Positions 21,913-30,962 of a stretch of DNA of 64,000 bases are shown here, in pieces (position 1 is the stretch's first letter; each line of letters starts with the position of its first letter). The DNA lies in the NCBI GenBank assembly GCA_944323505.1, contig CALUST010000024.1:20755-84754 (forward strand). Direction: 5' to 3'. The stretch comes from an uncultured Bacteroidales bacterium (GTDB lineage: Bacteria > Bacteroidota > Bacteroidia > Bacteroidales > UBA932). Below the pieces are notes generated by a model. That model did not search any database. It saw nothing but the letters and a program-made list of their open reading frames with translations, and was not told the origin of the DNA. A program made the position numbers and the translations under genes.

Positions 21913-24321
21913 TCAGAACGAATATGAGAGTTTCAGCATGAAATTTATCAGTGCCTGTGGATAGATCCAGATATAGCTTGTCACATCATCGCTGCCTTCA
22001 TACATCTCGCGCGAGGCTCCTCCGTCTGCATAATACATATTATTGAACAGGTTGTTGATGTAGCCGCTGATACCGAGCACGCCTTTTCCGAGGCTGAACT
22101 GATGTGTCAGGCTGAGATTGGACACGAAATATCCCGGTACCGACCTGTCCTGACTCGAGGTATTGTCCAGATACTGTCTCCCGACATACTTTCCGTTGAT
22201 TGTGAGAGTGGTGGTCTTGAGGGAGTTATGTGCAATGTTCCGGAACGGGGTGAATGCGAGTTGCATCATCCCCACCACTGACGGGGACATTAGCATATCC
22301 GTGCTGCCGCAATTCTGGACTGCATTCTTCCCGGTGAAATTGTAGTCGGCATCATAGACAGGGATATAGGCGACATAGTCCTTGAGCCTGTTCATGCTGA
22401 GTGAGAGATTTGCATCAGCACGCAGCCAAGGCAGGGCCTCCCACGCGGCTGCAAGTTCTATTCCCCGGCGATAACCCCTTCCCACATTCTCCTTGATCGC
22501 ATAGCCGGAATCACTCAGCCGGCCTGTCTCCAGGAGCATATCGAAATATTCCATGAAATAAAGGTTTGCGGATGCCGTGATCTTCGGTGCTGAATATATG
22601 TAGCCGATCTCCACGTCAACCATCTTCTCAGGTCTGAGTTCCTCTCTCGTGCCTCCGAGATTGTTGGTGATGATGACTTCCTTGATGTCGCTCCTGCCAG
22701 GCTCCCTGTTGCCGAGGGCTGCGGAAATGTACGCCTTGTTGCGCGGGGTCCAGTTAAAGGTGAGGCCGGCGCGCGGGTTGAAGAAATTCCATGTCGTGCT
22801 GTAGTCCAGCGGGCTGCCGTCATCATCAGGGCCTTCCATGTCAAGCGAGACTCCCCTGTACTGGAGGTCGAGATATGCTGTAATCCAGTCTGCAGGAGCA
22901 TATTCTGCACGGGCAAATACATTGAGTTCCTGCTTGAGACCGTTGTTCAGATACCAGGTGTGTGCCGCATTGAAGCCGTCATAGTCGAAATCAGACGGCA
23001 GACGGCTGCCCCAGAGCAGTTTCCCGATGTGATCCCCGTCATAGCGGGACACGTTGACCCCTCCTGTAAGACTGACTTTGTCCGATGTATACCGCACTTC
23101 GGAATTGGCGACGAGATAATAGTTGTCCATTGCCTCCCGTTCGATGAAATCACCTCCTGTGGTCATCGGCACTTCACCGTCTTCCTGCACCGGCTGCCCG
23201 GTGACCTTGTCATACATTTCAGGGATTGCAGGGAAGGCTTCCATCCCGAGCATTCCTTGCAGATTGTAGTCGGAGAGTTCATTCCCGGCCTCGTATTCCT
23301 CATAGTAGCCGTCACCCTTGGTAAAGTTCAGTGTCGTACTCCATACGACATTCTTCGGGAACTGGTGAGTGTAGTTCAGTTGCAGATGATGCTGGGTATA
23401 ATTGTCCGTCTGGTTGTCATAGTACTGTACATTGCCGAAACGGTCATAATACTCCCCGGCACTGTTATATCTGCGGTCAGTATTGTATGTATCCATGTCA
23501 ATCCCGTTCCATGTGATGCCGGTGTGCTGGTCTCCCATCAGGTATGTGAGTTTGAGGGAATTGGTCTCGTTCATCCAGCCGAGGACCGCGAGAGCGGACT
23601 GCACCCTGGCCTTGGCATTGCGGATATAGCCGTCGGTCCAGTTGCGGGAATAGGCGAAATCGAAGTACACTCCAGACCTTGTAAGCCCGGTGCCGGCCGC
23701 CACTGTAGACATGAAAGTATTATACGATCCTGCGGCAACTTCTGCTCTCACATAAGGAGACGAGCCGACAGATGCCGTACTCATATTGACGCTGGCGCCG
23801 AATGCCCCTGCCCCGTTGGCTGAGGTGCCGAGGCCTCTCTGCAACTGGACAGAACTCAGCAGGCTGGTAAGAGACGGGATGTTCACCCAGAAGACCTCCT
23901 GCGACTCCGCGTCATTCAGTGTGATACCGTTGAGAGTGACATTGATCTGTGAGCCCTTGCTGCCCCTGATCGTCATCTTGGAATAACCGAGACCGGTACC
24001 TCCTTCATTCACTGCCACTACAGACGGCTGCAGATTGAGCATCATCGGGAGGGAATTGACAGGGTTGTTCCGTCTCAGATCTTCCCTGCCGACCATGGTG
24101 TAGGTGACAGGAGTGTTCTTCCCTGCTCTTGAGGCAGACACGACGATGCTGTCGAGCCTGTCTGTCTTCTCTTCGACATATAGATTGTCTGATTCGCCGG
24201 TCTCAGACATGAGGGTCTCATGACCGGATGTACCAGCCTTGACGGCTGCTTCGTTCTCCGCAGCTGCTGCAGAAAACGGGACGAGCACAGAAAGTGCTGC
24301 AAAAAACAAAAAACCTCGCAT
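21913..24321 (-). CDS. TonB-dependent outer-membrane receptor, probable thiamine transporter (BT2390/OMthi-like)
   Basis: Signal peptide; LDSIVVSASRA TonB box; plug motifs TIRGSKGSQINVTLNGITLND and QLQRGLGTSANGAGAFGASVNM; C-terminal F; TPP riboswitch upstream. Start set at ATG 24321. Confidence 0.85.
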   Translation of the reverse strand: MRGFLFFAALSVLVPFSAAAAENEAAVKAGTSGHETLMSETGESDNLYVEEKTDRLDSIVVSASRAGKNTPVTYTMVGREDLRRNNPVNSLPMMLNLQPSVVAVNEGGTGLGYSKMTIRGSKGSQINVTLNGITLNDAESQEVFWVNIPSLTSLLSSVQLQRGLGTSANGAGAFGASVNMSTASVGSSPYVRAEVAAGSYNTFMSTVAAGTGLTRSGVYFDFAYSRNWTDGYIRNAKARVQSALAVLGWMNETNSLKLTYLMGDQHTGITWNGIDMDTYNTDRRYNSAGEYYDRFGNVQYYDNQTDNYTQHHLQLNYTHQFPKNVVWSTTLNFTKGDGYYEEYEAGNELSDYNLQGMLGMEAFPAIPEMYDKVTGQPVQEDGEVPMTTGGDFIEREAMDNYYLVANSEVRYTSDKVSLTGGVNVSRYDGDHIGKLLWGSRLPSDFDYDGFNAAHTWYLNNGLKQELNVFARAEYAPADWITAYLDLQYRGVSLDMEGPDDDGSPLDYSTTWNFFNPRAGLTFNWTPRNKAYISAALGNREPGRSDIKEVIITNNLGGTREELRPEKMVDVEIGYIYSAPKITASANLYFMEYFDMLLETGRLSDSGYAIKENVGRGYRRGIELAAAWEALPWLRADANLSLSMNRLKDYVAYIPVYDADYNFTGKNAVQNCGSTDMLMSPSVVGMMQLAFTPFRNIAHNSLKTTTLTINGKYVGRQYLDNTSSQDRSVPGYFVSNLSLTHQFSLGKGVLGISGYINNLFNNMYYADGGASREMYEGSDDVTSYIWIYPQALINFMLKLSYSF

Positions 24322-24341
24322 AAAATGACAATTATGCAAGG
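24301..24341 (-). terminator. Riboswitch expression-platform terminator overlapping the receptor start codon
   Basis: CCUUGCAUAA-(UUGUCAUU)-UUAUGCGAGG followed by UUUUUUGUUUUUU. Confidence 0.7.
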
Positions 24342-24367: not shown

Positions 24368-24620
24368 CTGCTTCCCTACGACGGTATTGGCCGTGTCAGG
24401 TTCAATGGGACTCTCTCAACTCCTTTGCAAGTATCTGCAAAGGAGTTGAGAGAAGGCTCCAACCCCCCTGCTCCCCCGAGGGGGACTGCCGTCCTGCCCG
24501 GACGGGCCGCCCGCGGCTTGCCACACCCCCGCTCCTGCAAAGGAGTTGAGAGAGAAGGCTCCAACCCCCCTGCTCCCCCGAGGGGGACTGCAGCAGATAC
24601 TTGCGGGAGTACCCCCGCAA
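24368..24620 (-). promoter_or_regulatory. TPP riboswitch aptamer with a greatly expanded P3 arm
   Basis: Minus strand reads GGGGGUACUCC...GGAGU-UGAGA-GAGUCCC-AUUGAACCUGA-CACGG-CCAAUA-CCGU-CGUAGGGAAG, giving the TPP hallmarks UGAGA, ACCUGA, AAUA loop and CGUAGGGA. Confidence 0.9.
24435..24591. repeat. Two direct repeats (55 nt at 24435-24489; 57 nt at 24535-24591) with a 45-nt GC-rich spacer, inside the riboswitch P3 loop
   Basis: ctgcaaaggagttgagag(ag)aaggctccaacccccctgctcccccgagggggactgc; the copies are identical except for a 2-nt AG slip. Confidence 0.95.
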
Positions 24621-24665
24621 TGTTATTTCAAAAATGCCGCTCCCGGACGGTTCCGAAAGCGGCTG

Positions 24666-24673
24666 CAAATATA
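24666..24673 (-). promoter_or_regulatory. -7 element (TATATTTG) driving the riboswitch leader
   Basis: TAnnTTTGCA match ~45 nt upstream of the aptamer. Confidence 0.6.
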
Positions 24674-24755: not shown

Positions 24756-25334
24756 TCAGAATGCGACAGCCAAGCCTACGCCATATCGCTGTGCACCGAA
24801 AGACAACTGCGTCCCGCAAGCCGAGCCACAAGCATCCGCGACCGAATTAAGATGTTTCTTGCTTATACATAGCACTGTCGTCCCAGCGACCATACCGAGA
24901 ACCCCGATACAAGTCGCGCATAGTCCCCCAACGGCCACTCCGGCAAACTTGCTGTCAAATGACATATCCGGCGACTTGCCTCCAAGTGCATAAAGCGGTG
25001 AGAGCATTGCGCCCCCAATTCCTGCAGCTATTGCCTCCACCATCACTCCCGTGGCTCCTACTCCGAGCGTCAGCAGACCGGCGCCAGTCAGAGAGCCGAA
25101 ACCTATCAACAGTCCCTTGCCTGTCCGGAACCCCTTCTGATAACGCTCCACATCCGCCAATGTATACCCGCTGTCATCCAGCATAGCGACAATCTGATCT
25201 TCTGAAAGAAGTTCTCCGCCAGCATAGAAATCCGCCCCTTTCCTGTACACATCATTATACTGGGCCGAGGCGGTCATACTGCTTGCCAAAAACACTGTCA
25301 AAATCAAAACCGGAACACAAAATCTCATAACCAT
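24756..25334 (-). CDS. Hypothetical exported/membrane protein with Gly-rich hydrophobic segments
   Basis: Signal peptide ending TASA|Q; Gly-rich hydrophobic helices; C-terminus LSFGAQRYGVGLAVAF. Start uncertain (25334, 25328 or 25397). Confidence 0.65.
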   Translation of the reverse strand: MVMRFCVPVLILTVFLASSMTASAQYNDVYRKGADFYAGGELLSEDQIVAMLDDSGYTLADVERYQKGFRTGKGLLIGFGSLTGAGLLTLGVGATGVMVEAIAAGIGGAMLSPLYALGGKSPDMSFDSKFAGVAVGGLCATCIGVLGMVAGTTVLCISKKHLNSVADACGSACGTQLSFGAQRYGVGLAVAF

Positions 25335-25438
25335 ATCATTTATTGTCATATCTGTAACGACAGCAAATATAACAAATCCAGGCACACAATCAAACAAGAA
25401 ATAGCATCATATTGCTCTATTACTCATGCAGAATTTAT

Positions 25439-25651
25439 TCAGGTTTCTTTTAGAAACTCTATCACCCTCTCTCTGTCTTCAAGAATCAGGCAACCTTTCA
25501 GTTTTTTCGAACATCGCTTCTGCACGCCATCATGCATATTGGCGACTTCCGGTGTCTGCATCTCTATGCTCATATGCGGCTGCTCGAAGTTGTAGAAGTC
25601 GATTATTCGCTCCAGGGCGCTCTTGCATTCCGCGCGTGCGGCGATGGACAT
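25439..25651 (-). pseudogene. Remnant of an IS3-family transposase C-terminus
   Basis: ALERIIDFYNFEQPHMSIEMQTPE resembles the IS3 integrase-core tail (Y..FYN..RPH.S.g..TP); the DDE core is absent. Confidence 0.55.
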
Positions 25652-25946
25652 CTTGTATAGTCATTCAGTCTCCAGGATACCGTTCGCCCATTCCGCTATA
25701 ACATTCTCCAGCAGGTCTCCACTCTGCGTCATGCTGATCAGTTTCGTGCATCCAATACCCGGATTTGGCCTTTTCAACTATCAACGACTTTATCGCGTCT
25801 TCGGCGAACTTCTTCCTGTTCCACTTATAGAATGCCTACCTGCAGCCAAATCATATTTCTGACCGTCTCCTGAAACAGAACCTGAATCATACGCCTTAGC
25901 AGCGTACAATACGCATCTTTTGAGAAAATTCGACTGTCTGCAGACT

Positions 25947-30601: not shown

Positions 30602-30918
30602 AAAAGGAGGGACGATCTGCCGCGCCGGCCATGGCCGGTGAGGAAAGTCCGGACAGGAAAGGGCACTTCACTGCGGAAAGCGCAGACGGGGGTAACTTCG
30701 TGGAACCTGTAACAGAAAACAACCGCATCTCCGGATGCAAGGGTGAAAACGTGAGGCAAGAGCTCACGACGGGCTGTGGCGACACACTCCGGGTACGGGA
30801 CTGAAGCCTGCAAGACCAAATATACTGACAGCCAAGGGCGGCCCGTCCGATGTCAGGGGGTAGGTTGCGAAGATAAATGGCAGAACAAAACAGAAACCGG
30901 CTTACGGTTCCTCCTTTT
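30602..30918 (+). ncRNA. rnpB: RNase P RNA, bacterial type A, lacking P18
   Basis: GAGGAAAGUCC (CR-I) and ACAGAAACCGGCUUAC (CR-V); P1 aaaaggagggac/gttcctcctttt; P2, P3 and P15-P17 pair as expected. Confidence 0.95.
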
Positions 30919-30962
30919 TATAAATGAGGCGCGCTGAAAAGGTGGTATTTAAAGCACACTTT

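What the first reader, a model, noticed from the sequence alone, without database searches (positions are those of the whole stretch)
24368..24620. TPP riboswitch whose P3 loop carries two built-in antisense copies of its own ligand-binding strand
SEEN (minus strand): the aptamer is split. The 5' half GGGGGU-ACUCC lies at about 24616-24606. The 3' half GGAGU-UGAGA...ACCUGA...AAUA...CGUAGGGAAG lies at 24423-24371. ACUCC/GGAGU pair, with an A-U pair where G-C is usual. They are extended by a perfect 12-bp helix GCAAGUAUCUGC (24604-24593) / GCAGAUACUUGC (24438-24427), closing a 154-nt loop. That loop holds two near-identical 55/57-nt repeats. Each contains (C)UCUCUCAACUCCUUUGCA, the exact complement (18 nt and 19 nt) of aptamer positions 24429-24411. 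Those positions include the P3 3' strand and the UGAGA motif. The proximal copy can form a perfect 18-bp hairpin with a 6-nt loop. Each copy can instead be masked in its own hairpin (GGGGUUG-GAG / CUC-U-CAACUCC). ESTABLISHED: UGAGA (J3/2) binds the pyrimidine of TPP, and P3 length varies between riboswitches. INFERENCE: this is a bistable RNA. With the anti-aptamers masked it binds TPP; with them unmasked it cannot. That could raise the TPP threshold, add a second input (temperature, protein, transcription speed) or disable the switch so the thiamine importer is constitutive. I know of no described riboswitch with tandem internal anti-aptamer cassettes.
Basis: partly seen in the sequence, partly recalled or inferred. 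Interest (0 to 1): 0.82.

Follow-up and report, generated by a model that had tools for sequence, protein, structure and literature searches.

The report
Mobile repeat lodged in thiamine riboswitch

Summary
On the minus strand, 24620-24368 is a complete TPP aptamer ahead of a TonB-dependent receptor gene. Its P3 tip holds a 182-nt insert made of two 57/55-nt repeats, each ending in a perfect 19/18-nt complement of the P3-3'/UGAGAG strand. It is not an assembly artefact: six complete independent assemblies of this species carry it, with two to three copies of a ~101-nt unit.

It does not look purpose-built. The first half of each repeat is the 3' end of a patchy, low-copy repeat family of Candidatus Cryptobacteroides. 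Most copies of that family lie in frame inside housekeeping genes, like Rickettsia palindromic elements. Family copies are typically followed by a long, locus-specific perfect hairpin. Its outer arm is native flank and its inner arm is an inverted copy that empty sites lack. The "anti-aptamer" is that junction hairpin, later duplicated in tandem.

Two other species carry a family element in the same P3 loop, and one of these insertions is probably independent. Nearest-neighbour folding puts the ligand-binding fold 14-24 kcal/mol above the minimum, against 4-5 in relatives without the element. Yet the aptamer and the closing helix still change in a compensatory way. A tuning role is possible but unproven.

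The parts
24666..24673 (-). Likely Bacteroidetes -7 promoter box TATATTTG (consensus TAnnTTTG), with the transcription start a few nt downstream
   Evidence: Read from the sequence. The same box sits at the same place in relatives' leaders. The consensus is from memory, and no transcription-start data were available.
24617..24620 (-). P1 5' strand UUGC
   Evidence: Pairs with GCAG at 24368-24371. All pairs are canonical or G-U. Identical in all alleles.
24606..24616 (-). P2 5' strand (GGGGG-U) and P3 5' strand ACUCC
   Evidence: Matches the Rfam consensus GGGGuGCccc as aligned in relatives. The imposed pairs are canonical.
24593..24604 (-). 5' strand of the 12-bp P3 extension (GCAAGUAUCUGC) that closes the insert
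   Evidence: Perfect inverted repeat I3. In Ca. C. excrementipullorum the helix is kept through one A-U to G-C double change and two G-U changes.
24535..24591 (-). Repeat R1 (57 nt): hairpin A, G-run, linker, then a 19-nt inverted copy of the native strand (24536-24554)
   Evidence: the repeat finder D1/D2/I1. The family motif lies at 24565-24587.
24490..24534 (-). Spacer S (45 nt, GC-rich hairpins). Together with R it forms the ~101-nt tandem unit
   Evidence: Unit structure seen across alleles. TRF gives period 101, 2.6 copies and 93% matches in allele L029.
24435..24489 (-). Repeat R2 (55 nt): hairpin A, G-run, linker, then an 18-nt inverted copy (24436-24453) that forms the perfect hairpin with the native strand
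   Evidence: the repeat finder D1/D2/I2. The family motif lies at 24463-24485. The hairpin alone folds at -31.9 kcal/mol.
24427..24438 (-). 3' strand of the 12-bp P3 extension (GCAGAUACUUGC). It overlaps the end of R2 and the loop of the junction hairpin
   Evidence: Inverted repeat I3.
24411..24429 (-). Native strand copied by the element: UGCAAA, P3 3' strand GGAGU (24419-24423), J3/2 UGAGAG (24413-24418) and the start of P2 3'
   Evidence: I1/I2. GGAGUUGAGAGAGUCCC is also present in relatives that lack the element, so it is the native sequence.
24368..24412 (-). Rest of the aptamer: P2 3' (A24412, CCC 24407-24409), P4 (24397-24400 / 24375-24378), P5 (24391-24394 / 24381-24384), P1 3' GCAG (24368-24371)
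   Evidence: cmscan alignment. The imposed pairs are canonical. P5 carries an ACGG/CCGU versus CCGG/CCGG double change relative to L023, L028 and G312.
24314..24341 (-). Expression platform: the 10-bp hairpin CCUUGCAUAA / UUAUGCGAGG encloses the start codon (AUG 24319-24321)
   Evidence: Seen in the sequence and present in both constrained and unconstrained folds. The two strands are conserved in relatives. B. thetaiotaomicron transport-operon TPP switches act on translation (bioRxiv 10.1101/867226).
21913..24321 (-). TonB-dependent receptor (802 aa from MRGFLFF), the presumed outer-membrane thiamine importer
   Evidence: Pfam Plug plus TonB_dep_Rec_b-barrel. More than 5,600 homologues, with orthologues behind TPP aptamers.

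Best explanation
**What it is.** This is a genuine TPP riboswitch controlling the only recognisable thiamine outer-membrane importer of a ThiC-less Candidatus Cryptobacteroides species. A small non-autonomous repeat element has invaded its P3 terminal loop.

**The element family.** The family is patchy and low-copy in this genus.
- Its copies share a sharp 3' end: hairpin CCCCCnnnGGGGG, then GCAGGGGGG, then T plus 2-10 nt.
- Their 5' extents vary.
- Most copies lie in frame inside housekeeping genes.
- About half of the copies by a strict test (stem of at least 12 bp), and most by RNAfold, are followed at once by a perfect 14-22-bp hairpin. Its distal arm is the native flank. Its proximal arm is a newly made inverted copy of that flank.

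**How the antisense copies arose.** In the riboswitch the native flank happens to be the P3-3'/UGAGAG/P2-3' strand, so the obligatory inverted copy is an 'anti-aptamer'. The element plus its inverted copy (unit S+R, ~101 nt) was then duplicated in tandem. It now varies between strains like a minisatellite: R-S-R, R-S-R-S-R and r'-S-R-S-R.

**Shown here:**
- the aptamer anatomy;
- family membership of the insert;
- the flank-derived origin of the junction hairpins, by empty-site comparison;
- the copy-number polymorphism;
- homologous or parallel insertions in two more species.

**Inferred:**
- The inverted copy arises by snap-back (fold-back) DNA synthesis at the right-hand target end before joining to the element's 3' end. 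This gives exactly the layout [inverted copy][short loop = first flank bases][flank].
- The P3 tip tolerates the insert because it is the distal, variable part of the aptamer.
- The net present-day effect is to tilt folding away from the ligand-binding fold, that is, weaker TPP repression of the importer, without abolishing the switch.
For: **Aptamer.** Searches give the anatomy. Relatives with ordinary aptamers score 50-69 bits in the same leader.

**Family membership.**
- The 23-27-nt motif in R matches other genomes at 93-96%.
- It occurs 1-6 times in all 11 genomes selected because they matched the motif or the insert, with 0 hits for the reversed control.
- Similarity between loci stops 1-7 nt after the G-run, and shared 5' extents range from 25 to about 250 nt.

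**Junction hairpins.**
- 14 of 28 loci have stems of at least 12 bp starting within 14 nt of the G-run. Random positions in the same loci give 0 of 455.
- RNAfold shows hairpins at most of the other loci.
- The genome-wide background is only 16 such palindromes.

**Empty sites.**
- The HK-der intergenic region is filled in G562 and empty in five species. The right arm equals the last der codons. The left arm is absent from all the empty sites.
- At the G000 orthologues of the purL and gltD sites, the right arm equals the native WLL(M/Q)F and VA(I/V)IGS codons and no left arm is present.

**In-frame insertion.** At least 20 of 28 loci have a long ORF spanning the element. Pfam domains lie on both sides or around it in PurL, GltD-like, GH3, Cls, radical-SAM, ABC, ArgD and AroC.

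**Other riboswitch cases.**
- Ca. C. excrementipullorum (L033 = L103) has a homologous r'-S'-R' insert with a perfect 22-bp hairpin. A UUU/AAA to UU/AA change has occurred on both arms.
- Human-gut MAG L111/L181 has a family element with a different interior in the same loop. Its 18-bp inverted copy matches its own, different P3 (GUGU).

**Array polymorphism.**

**Folding.**
- The aptamer-competent fold costs 14-21 kcal/mol by minimum free energy (15-22 by ensemble) in the window species, 22.5 in G312 and 16.4 in L111.
- It costs about 4-5 in L023, L028 and a capped 12-bp P3 construct, and about 6-7 in a construct with the whole insert removed.
- In prefix-by-prefix MFE folding the junction hairpin forms as soon as its right arm is transcribed.

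**Continued selection on the switch.** There is a P5 double change and a closing-helix double change between element-bearing lineages.

**Physiology.** The genome has no ThiC and a single TPP riboswitch.

**Precedent.** Snap-back synthesis by bacterial group-II-intron-like reverse transcriptases is documented (bioRxiv 10.1101/2022.03.14.484287).
Against: - No mobilising enzyme was identified, and no recent transposition (a filled/empty polymorphism within one species) was seen. 'Mobile' therefore rests on distribution alone.
- In G000, G312 and the L111 genome, the riboswitch copy is the only copy of the motif in the genome. At least two probably independent insertions hit the same loop. Both facts hint at selection for, or targeting of, this site rather than passive tolerance.
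- The 14-24 kcal/mol penalty is hard to reconcile with a still-working aptamer unless kinetics, proteins or tertiary contacts rescue it. Thermodynamic folding did not reveal how the expression platform switches, even in relatives.
- By the TBDR comparison the closest relative (L023, 87% identity over the first 400 residues) lacks the element, while G312 (80%) has it. Either a loss or recombination must be assumed.
- Copy numbers come from short-read assemblies.
Confidence: 0.72

Rival explanations
1. Selected regulatory device. The element-made anti-aptamer has been kept, and perhaps recruited more than once, because it turns a simple OFF switch into a kinetically gated or higher-threshold switch. 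This keeps the sole thiamine importer expressed in an auxotroph. Copy number and G-run length would act as a rheostat.
For: - In three species the riboswitch copy is the only family copy left in the genome.
- There are at least two probably independent insertions in the same loop.
- Perfect complementarity is kept across species through a matched indel.
- The aptamer and the closing helix are still under structural selection.
- The predicted energetic effect is large.
- The organism lacks ThiC.
- The alleles differ in copy number and in homopolymer lengths.
Against: - Perfect arms are the default state of this family everywhere, including inside coding genes, so they need no riboswitch-specific selection.
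- Palindromes can be kept perfect by template-switch correction at the DNA level.
- The within-species data have no power: I estimated about 1.1 substitutions expected in the 16-nt core, and none was seen.
- There are no expression or probing data.
- Most relatives do without the insert.
Confidence: 0.18
2. Disabled switch. The junction hairpin and the 5' hairpin UUGCGGGG/UCCCGCAA lock both aptamer halves away, TPP is never bound, and the importer is expressed (or sequestered) constitutively. On this reading the aptamer is a not-yet-decayed relic.
For: - The ligand-binding fold lies 14-24 kcal/mol above the minimum. This is far more than ligand binding can repay at physiological TPP.
- That fold never appears in prefix-by-prefix MFE folding.
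- An auxotroph may not need repression.
Against: - All invariant aptamer nucleotides are intact in three element-bearing lineages.
- The differences between lineages are compensatory (P5, closing helix) or lie in loops.
- Repeat units within one allele differ by about 7-9%, so the array is old enough for decay to have shown.
Confidence: 0.15
3. Purely local origin. A template-switch or quasi-palindrome mutation at the P3 hairpin, followed by slippage, made the array, and no mobile element was involved.
For: - The inverted copy derives from the local flank.
- TGCA microhomology lies at the loop.
- The insert is single-copy in its own genome.
Against: - The non-flank half of R is 93-96% identical to the terminus of a repeat family found at dozens of unrelated loci in other genomes.
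- L111 has the same terminus with a different interior.
Confidence: 0.04
4. Assembly artefact: a chimeric or collapsed repeat in a MAG contig.
For: - The genome is a short-read MAG.
- Four of eleven related contigs end inside the array.
- No reads could be examined.
Against: - Six other complete leaders from at least three independent projects and assemblers show the same junctions.
- Homologous structures occur in two other species, one of them in two independent assemblies.
Confidence: 0.02

Closest known systems
TPP riboswitch (THI element, Rfam RF00059), Bacteroidetes transporter-leader type acting on translation (Costliow, Degnan & Vanderpool, bioRxiv 10.1101/867226)
   Same: - All five helices, J3/2 UGAGA, and the ACCUGA...CGUAGGGAA pyrophosphate-sensor arm.
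- Position ahead of a TonB-dependent thiamine receptor.
- A start-codon hairpin about 50 nt downstream of the aptamer.
   Different: - P3 totals about 190 nt here (up to about 290 nt in other alleles), against 12-26 nt in most of 80 related leaders.
- The extension is a mobile repeat array carrying perfect complements of the ligand-binding strand.
- The Rfam model fails its gathering score (41 against 54.3 bits).
Rickettsia palindromic elements (RPEs; Ogata et al. 2000, reviewed in PMC10969869)
   Same: Short, non-autonomous, hairpin-rich repeats found between genes and in frame inside housekeeping protein genes. From memory, they also occur in functional RNA genes. No obvious transposase.
   Different: - Different sequence and a different phylum.
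- This family shares a sharp 3' end with variable 5' extents.
- It is typically accompanied by a 14-22-bp inverted copy of its right flank, a hallmark I could not find described.
BOX element between the two T-box riboswitches of the pneumococcal trp leader (Croucher et al. 2011, PMC3049150)
   Same: A small structured repeat inserted into a riboswitch leader and co-transcribed with it, while regulation apparently persists.
   Different: BOX lies between two complete aptamers. Here the element lies inside one aptamer helix and is complementary to the binding core.
Snap-back / synthesis-dependent microhomology-mediated end joining (PMC5728401, PMC2943611; bacterial G2L4 and group II intron reverse transcriptases, bioRxiv 10.1101/2022.03.14.484287) and quasi-palindrome template switching
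   Same: These mechanisms produce inverted copies of the flanking sequence at a junction, in exactly the layout [inverted copy][loop][flank].
   Different: - They are known as repair scars of a few to about 30 nt, not as a constant feature of a repeat-element family.
- No enzyme has been tied to this family.
MIRU-type VNTRs (mycobacterial interspersed repetitive units; PMC3184786)
   Same: Element-derived units of tens to about 100 bp, repeated in tandem, with strain-to-strain copy-number variation.
   Different: These lie in intergenic or operon contexts, not inside a riboswitch helix, and carry no flank-derived palindrome.

Membership tests
TPP riboswitch (RF00059) | Helices P1, P2, P3, P4 and P5 in the consensus order | tested here: met
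   All 20 imposed pairs are canonical or G-U when the true 5' half (24606-24620) is used. The same holds for G312 and L111.
TPP riboswitch (RF00059) | Conserved unpaired J3/2 UGAGA and the sensor-arm motifs ACCUGA ... CGUAGGGAA | tested here: met
   Present at 24413-24418 and 24371-24401. Identical in all alleles.
TPP riboswitch (RF00059) | Score at or above Rfam's gathering threshold | tested here: not met
   The score is 41.0 bits against 54.3, with a mis-assigned 5' half. The shortfall is explained by the 182-nt P3 insert. Insert-free orthologues score 50-69 bits.
TPP riboswitch (RF00059) | Thiamine-related gene downstream | tested here: met
   The downstream gene is a TonB-dependent receptor, orthologous to receptors that lie behind TPP aptamers across the genus.
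TPP riboswitch (RF00059) | Binds TPP and changes expression | not testable with these tools
   Needs probing or reporter assays. The only indirect evidence is compensatory changes in P5 and in the closing helix.
RPE-like in-frame repeat family of Cryptobacteroides (undescribed in the literature searched) | Shared 3' terminus CCCCCnnnGGGGG-N-GCAGGGGGG-T | tested here: met
   Present at 24463-24485 and 24565-24587, with 1 mismatch to the pattern and 93-96% identity to other loci.
RPE-like in-frame repeat family of Cryptobacteroides (undescribed in the literature searched) | Long perfect hairpin directly after the G-run, made of an inverted copy plus the native right flank | tested here: met
   The 18-bp hairpin starts 10 nt after the G-run. 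Its right arm is native riboswitch sequence that relatives without the element also have.
RPE-like in-frame repeat family of Cryptobacteroides (undescribed in the literature searched) | Multiple dispersed copies in the same genome | tested here: not met
   G000 has only the two tandem copies in the riboswitch. Other genomes hold 1-6 dispersed copies.
Classical MITE | Terminal inverted repeats of the element itself plus short direct target-site duplications | tested here: not met
   The 12-bp 'TIR' is the native P3 extension. It is conserved as a helix and is not shared with other family loci. No direct repeat flanks the element at other loci, and family copies share only the 3' end.
Designed bistable / anti-aptamer riboswitch | Alternative pairing that excludes the ligand-binding fold | tested here: met
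   MFE and ensemble folds contain the junction hairpin. The aptamer-competent fold costs 14-24 kcal/mol.
Designed bistable / anti-aptamer riboswitch | The alternative pairing is specifically selected for regulation | tested here: inconclusive
   Perfect arms are generic to the family. Sole-copy retention and recurrence at this site are suggestive. There are no functional data.

The most novel reading that the evidence does not exclude
A flank-copying selfish repeat has been captured, at least twice independently, in the P3 loop of the thiamine-importer riboswitch. In three species it is the only copy retained in the genome. The reason would be that its automatically generated anti-aptamer rewires the switch, giving a higher TPP threshold or a kinetically gated response, with copy number and G-run length as a heritable rheostat, in thiamine-auxotrophic gut Bacteroidales. 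That would be mobile-element-driven evolution of riboswitch logic.
Probability: 0.18. Interest if true: 0.85.

Novelty: new variant of a known kind. Interest (0 to 1): 0.6.

Why it matters
**For riboswitch biology.** This is a natural experiment: an intact, conserved TPP aptamer has lived for a long time with 18-22-bp perfect competitors of its binding core inside its own P3 stem. Natural alleles carry one, two or three competitors, masked or unmasked. Measuring these alleles would show how much folding competition a co-transcriptionally folding aptamer can absorb, which bears on riboswitch engineering.

**For genome biology.** The case links a riboswitch oddity to an apparently undescribed repeat family of gut Bacteroidales. 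That family sits in frame inside essential genes and leaves a snap-back-like inverted copy of its flank at many of its insertions. That is a mechanistic signature, and it could reveal how such orphan elements move.

Tried and rejected
1. **Classical MITE with a 12-bp TIR and a GCAA duplication.** Rejected. The '12-bp TIR' is the native P3 extension and is not shared with other copies.
2. **Multicopy element in the own genome.** None found.
3. **Exact 21-mer in GTDB genomes and JGI metagenomes.** No hits.
4. **The masking arm as an A-to-G diverged copy of the native strand kept by RNA-level selection.** Rejected. It is the element's conserved G-run terminus.
5. **The element targets pre-existing hairpins or terminators.** Rejected for the der, purL and gltD sites, where empty sites have no left arm.
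6. **A direct repeat (r') on the element's left as a general target duplication.** Rejected. It occurs only in riboswitch loci and reflects the history of the tandem array.
7. **DGR target (IMH plus hairpin), retron msd, group II/IIC intron end, IS200/IS605 end, bridge or seek RNA guides.** Considered from memory. None fits a locus-specific flank copy with housekeeping neighbours, and there were no Rfam hits.
8. **Thermodynamic modelling of the expression platform.** Inconclusive. The start-codon hairpin forms with and without the aptamer constraint, even in relatives.
9. **Exact-protein look-ups for the receptor.** Both failed until I used cluster members.
10. **TRF on the window.** It misses the array because only 1.55 units are present.
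11. **Literature searches.** They found no description of this family or of element insertions inside a TPP P3 stem.
Full report
**1.

- Two direct repeats: R1 24535-24591 (57 nt) and R2 24435-24489 (55 nt).
- A perfect 19-nt complement (24536-24554) and a perfect 18-nt complement (24436-24453) of the native strand 24411-24429.
- A perfect 12-bp helix (24593-24604 with 24427-24438) enclosing 154 nt.

The flanks form a complete TPP aptamer:
- P1 UUGC/GCAG;
- P2 GGG/CCC plus U-A;
- P3 ACUCC/GGAGU;
- J3/2 UGAGAG;
- P4 and P5.

All 20 imposed pairs are canonical.

Rfam gives only 41 bits against a gathering score of 54.3. It mis-uses the proximal repeat as a 5' half because it cannot bridge the insert.

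The downstream gene (24321-21913) is a TonB-dependent receptor. A 10-bp hairpin, CCUUGCAUAA/UUAUGCGAGG, encloses its start codon. This fits the translational control shown for Bacteroides thiamine-transport leaders (bioRxiv 10.1101/867226).

**2. It is real DNA and it is polymorphic**

The receptor belongs to a 33-member 90%-identity cluster. I fetched the contigs that encode cluster members. This gave six further complete leaders from at least three projects. All have identical aptamer flanks and the same junctions, but their arrays differ:
- R-S-R (window, L021, L022);
- R-S-R-S-R (L029; TRF period 101, 2.6 copies);
- r'-S-R-S-R (L017, L019, L032), where r' is a bare anti-aptamer segment without its G-rich partner.

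Differences between copies lie mainly in the G-run length, the CU-rich loop and the spacer, plus one substitution in hairpin A of L029. The 16-nt core CUCAACUCCUUUGCAG never varies, but my estimate of about one expected substitution gives this no statistical weight. Four contigs end inside the array, so short-read copy numbers are provisional.

**3. Relatives**

The genus is Candidatus Cryptobacteroides (record titles).

Same-genus orthologous leaders have ordinary aptamers. In the roughly 45 of 80 receptor leaders where P3 could be measured, it totals 12-26 nt in most, 31-73 nt in several and more than 170 nt in a few.

The nearest species lack the array: L023-27 (87% receptor identity over the first 400 residues) and L028 (78%).

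Ca. C. excrementipullorum (G312 = L033 = L103, 80%) has a homologous insert, r'-S'-R':
- The 12-bp closing helix is kept through one A-U to G-C double change and two G-U changes.
- The junction hairpin is a perfect 22 bp (-43 kcal/mol).
- It has changed UUU/AAA to UU/AA on both arms.

**4. The insert belongs to a repeat family**

The first half of R (CAGUCCCCCUCGGGGGAGCAGGGGGGU) matches short stretches in other Cryptobacteroides genomes at 93-96%.
- I searched the pattern in 11 genomes chosen because they had matched the motif or the insert. It occurs 1-6 times in each, with no hit for the reversed control.
- It is patchy. It occurs in about 8 of 400 genomes of the genus by BLAST. It occurs in 3 of 201 genomes sampled across the family, including one from another genus.
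- Similarity among loci runs from 25 to about 250 nt upstream and stops 1-7 nt after the G-run. So the 3' end is shared and sharp, and the 5' extents vary.

The sequence after the G-run is distinctive.
- In 14 of 28 loci a stem of at least 12 bp starts within 14 nt of the G-run. Random positions in the same loci give 0 of 455.
- RNAfold shows longer or nested hairpins at most of the remaining loci.
- The whole G000 genome has only 16 such palindromes.

**5. The hairpins are made from the flank**

At the convergent histidine-kinase/der junction:
- The filled site (G562, L063) has a hairpin whose right arm is the last six der codons, with the stop codon in the loop.
- Five species with empty sites keep those codons but have no left arm.

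G000 itself provides empty orthologues for sites inside purL and a gltD-like gene. The right arms are the native WLL(M/Q)F and VA(I/V)IGS codons, and again the left arms are absent.

The layout [inverted copy][3-6-nt loop = first flank bases][flank] is what snap-back synthesis at the right-hand DNA end would give before joining to the element's 3' end. That activity is documented for bacterial group-II-intron-like reverse transcriptases and for end-joining in eukaryotes. This mechanism is my inference, and I identified no enzyme.

Mismatches in the long stems are almost all G-T.

**6. Most copies lie in frame inside genes**

At least 20 of 28 loci have a long ORF running through the element and the hairpin, in either orientation. 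Pfam places domains on both sides of, or around, the insert in PurL, a GltD-like oxidoreductase, a GH3 glycosidase, cardiolipin synthase, a radical-SAM enzyme, an ABC transporter, ArgD and AroC. In PurH and MiaA the domain hit lies on one side only.

This is the behaviour of Rickettsia palindromic elements. Literature searches found no description of such a family in Bacteroidales. Earlier agents of this scan have independently noted RPE-like, in-frame hairpin repeats with locus-specific complementary arms in gut and rumen Bacteroidales, and one note shares sequence words with this core. These are unchecked AI notes. Here I add the empty-site evidence that one arm is native flank.

**7. What this means for the 'anti-aptamer'**

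In the riboswitch the right flank of the element is the P3-3'/UGAGAG/P2-3' strand, so the family's obligatory inverted copy is automatically an anti-aptamer.

The G-rich 'masking' arm is the element's conserved terminus. It pairs with the copy because the copy of a purine-rich strand is pyrimidine-rich.

A third species makes the point independently: human-gut MAG L111, confirmed by metagenome contig L181.
- It has a family element with an unrelated interior in the same P3 loop.
- It is followed by an 18-bp inverted copy of that species' own, different P3 strand (…AUUGUGUUGAGAGAGUCC).

About a dozen intermediate species have short P3 stems, so a separate insertion is more parsimonious than many losses.

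The upstream direct repeat r' is peculiar to the riboswitch loci. It reflects tandem duplication that predates the split between the window species and G312.

**8. Consequences for the switch**

| RNA | Cost of the aptamer-competent fold above the minimum (kcal/mol) |
|---|---|
| R-S-R and R-S-R-S-R alleles | 13-14 (15-17 in the ensemble) |
| r'-S-R-S-R alleles | 19-21 (about 21 in the ensemble) |
| G312 | 22.5 (23.6 in the ensemble) |
| L111 | 16.4 |
| L023, L028, capped 12-bp P3 construct | about 4-5 |
| Construct with the whole insert removed | about 6-7 |

In prefix-by-prefix MFE folding the P3 closing helix never appears, and the junction hairpin forms as soon as its right arm is out. On paper the switch should be locked in the non-binding fold.

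Against that:
- All invariant aptamer positions are intact in three element-bearing lineages.
- The window species differs from L023, L028 and G312 in P5 by a compensatory double change (ACGG/CCGU against CCGG/CCGG).
- The closing helix co-varies.
- Units within one allele differ by about 7-9%, so the array is not young.

I therefore think the aptamer still functions in vivo and that the array biases it toward the ligand-free state. The size of that effect is unknown.

The organism has no ThiC and only this one TPP riboswitch. Weaker repression of the importer would therefore be tolerable or useful.

In G000, G312 and the L111 genome the riboswitch copy is the only family copy in the genome. 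This keeps a selected-function reading alive, at about 0.18.

**9. Verdict**

The result is a new variant of a known kind, a TPP riboswitch with a mobile-element-expanded P3. It sits on top of a repeat family that deserves study in its own right.

Noticed in passing
L066 (purL), L046/L079 (gltD-like), L049 (GH3), L045 (cls), L047 (purH), L055 (radical SAM), L076 (ABC), L036 (argD), L069 (aroC), L058/L067 (miaA); the motif lies near position 1500 of each locus: The repeat family that supplied the riboswitch insert sits in frame inside housekeeping protein genes of several Cryptobacteroides species. It adds about 25-85 residues, for example ..SERSDAGSLRGTPLSPPGGRRGVD.. in one orientation and ..TPLHPRGGLRGVPLRLPESLRSE.. 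in the other. A 'coding palindrome' made from the host gene's own codons follows it.
   Followed up: partly
L101 and L102, about 450-700 of each locus (P3 of the orthologous TPP leaders): Two other species (receptor 75-76% identical) carry an unrelated ~230-250-nt P3 extension. It has long-range stems and a shared GGAGTTTACT...GTAAATGA core. So P3 of this leader has been expanded by at least two kinds of sequence.
   Followed up: no
window 24637-24664 (minus strand): A hairpin, GCCGCUUUCGGAACCGUCCGGGAGCGGC, lies between the putative promoter and the aptamer. It recurs with compensatory-looking differences in G312, L028 and L105. Its role is unknown.
   Followed up: no
window 24756-25946; ORF 24756-25397 (minus strand): In relatives the glutaminyl cyclase gene directly abuts the riboswitch promoter. 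In this species about 1.2 kb is interposed. It holds a 190-213-aa ORF without a Pfam match, and allele L019 has an rve_3 integrase fragment further upstream. This suggests a second insertion event next to the leader.
   Followed up: no
G000 C5:1860-2060 compared with L046/L079: At the empty gltD site G000 encodes ..SNGHK|VAVIGS. NGH is exactly what an inverted copy of the VAI codons would encode, as in the filled sites (GTDNGHK|VAIIGS). This could be a footprint of an earlier insertion and loss, or a coincidence.
   Followed up: no
L005 (G012:C12), about 1478-1570: A second TPP aptamer is 93% identical to the window's 3' half, with P3 = ACUCC-GCAA-GGAGU. It precedes a different gene (signal peptide MNSSLLLIAALAAL). 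It looks like a paralogous or transferred copy of the aptamer.
   Followed up: no
whole genome G000: There is no ThiC (PF01964) and only one TPP riboswitch in a 90%-complete 1.93-Mb genome. The organism is probably a thiamine or HMP auxotroph that depends on this receptor.
   Followed up: partly
window 30604-30920 (plus strand): RNase P RNA class A scores 192 bits. A 24-position stretch of the model has no residues, and several helices are shortened.
   Followed up: no
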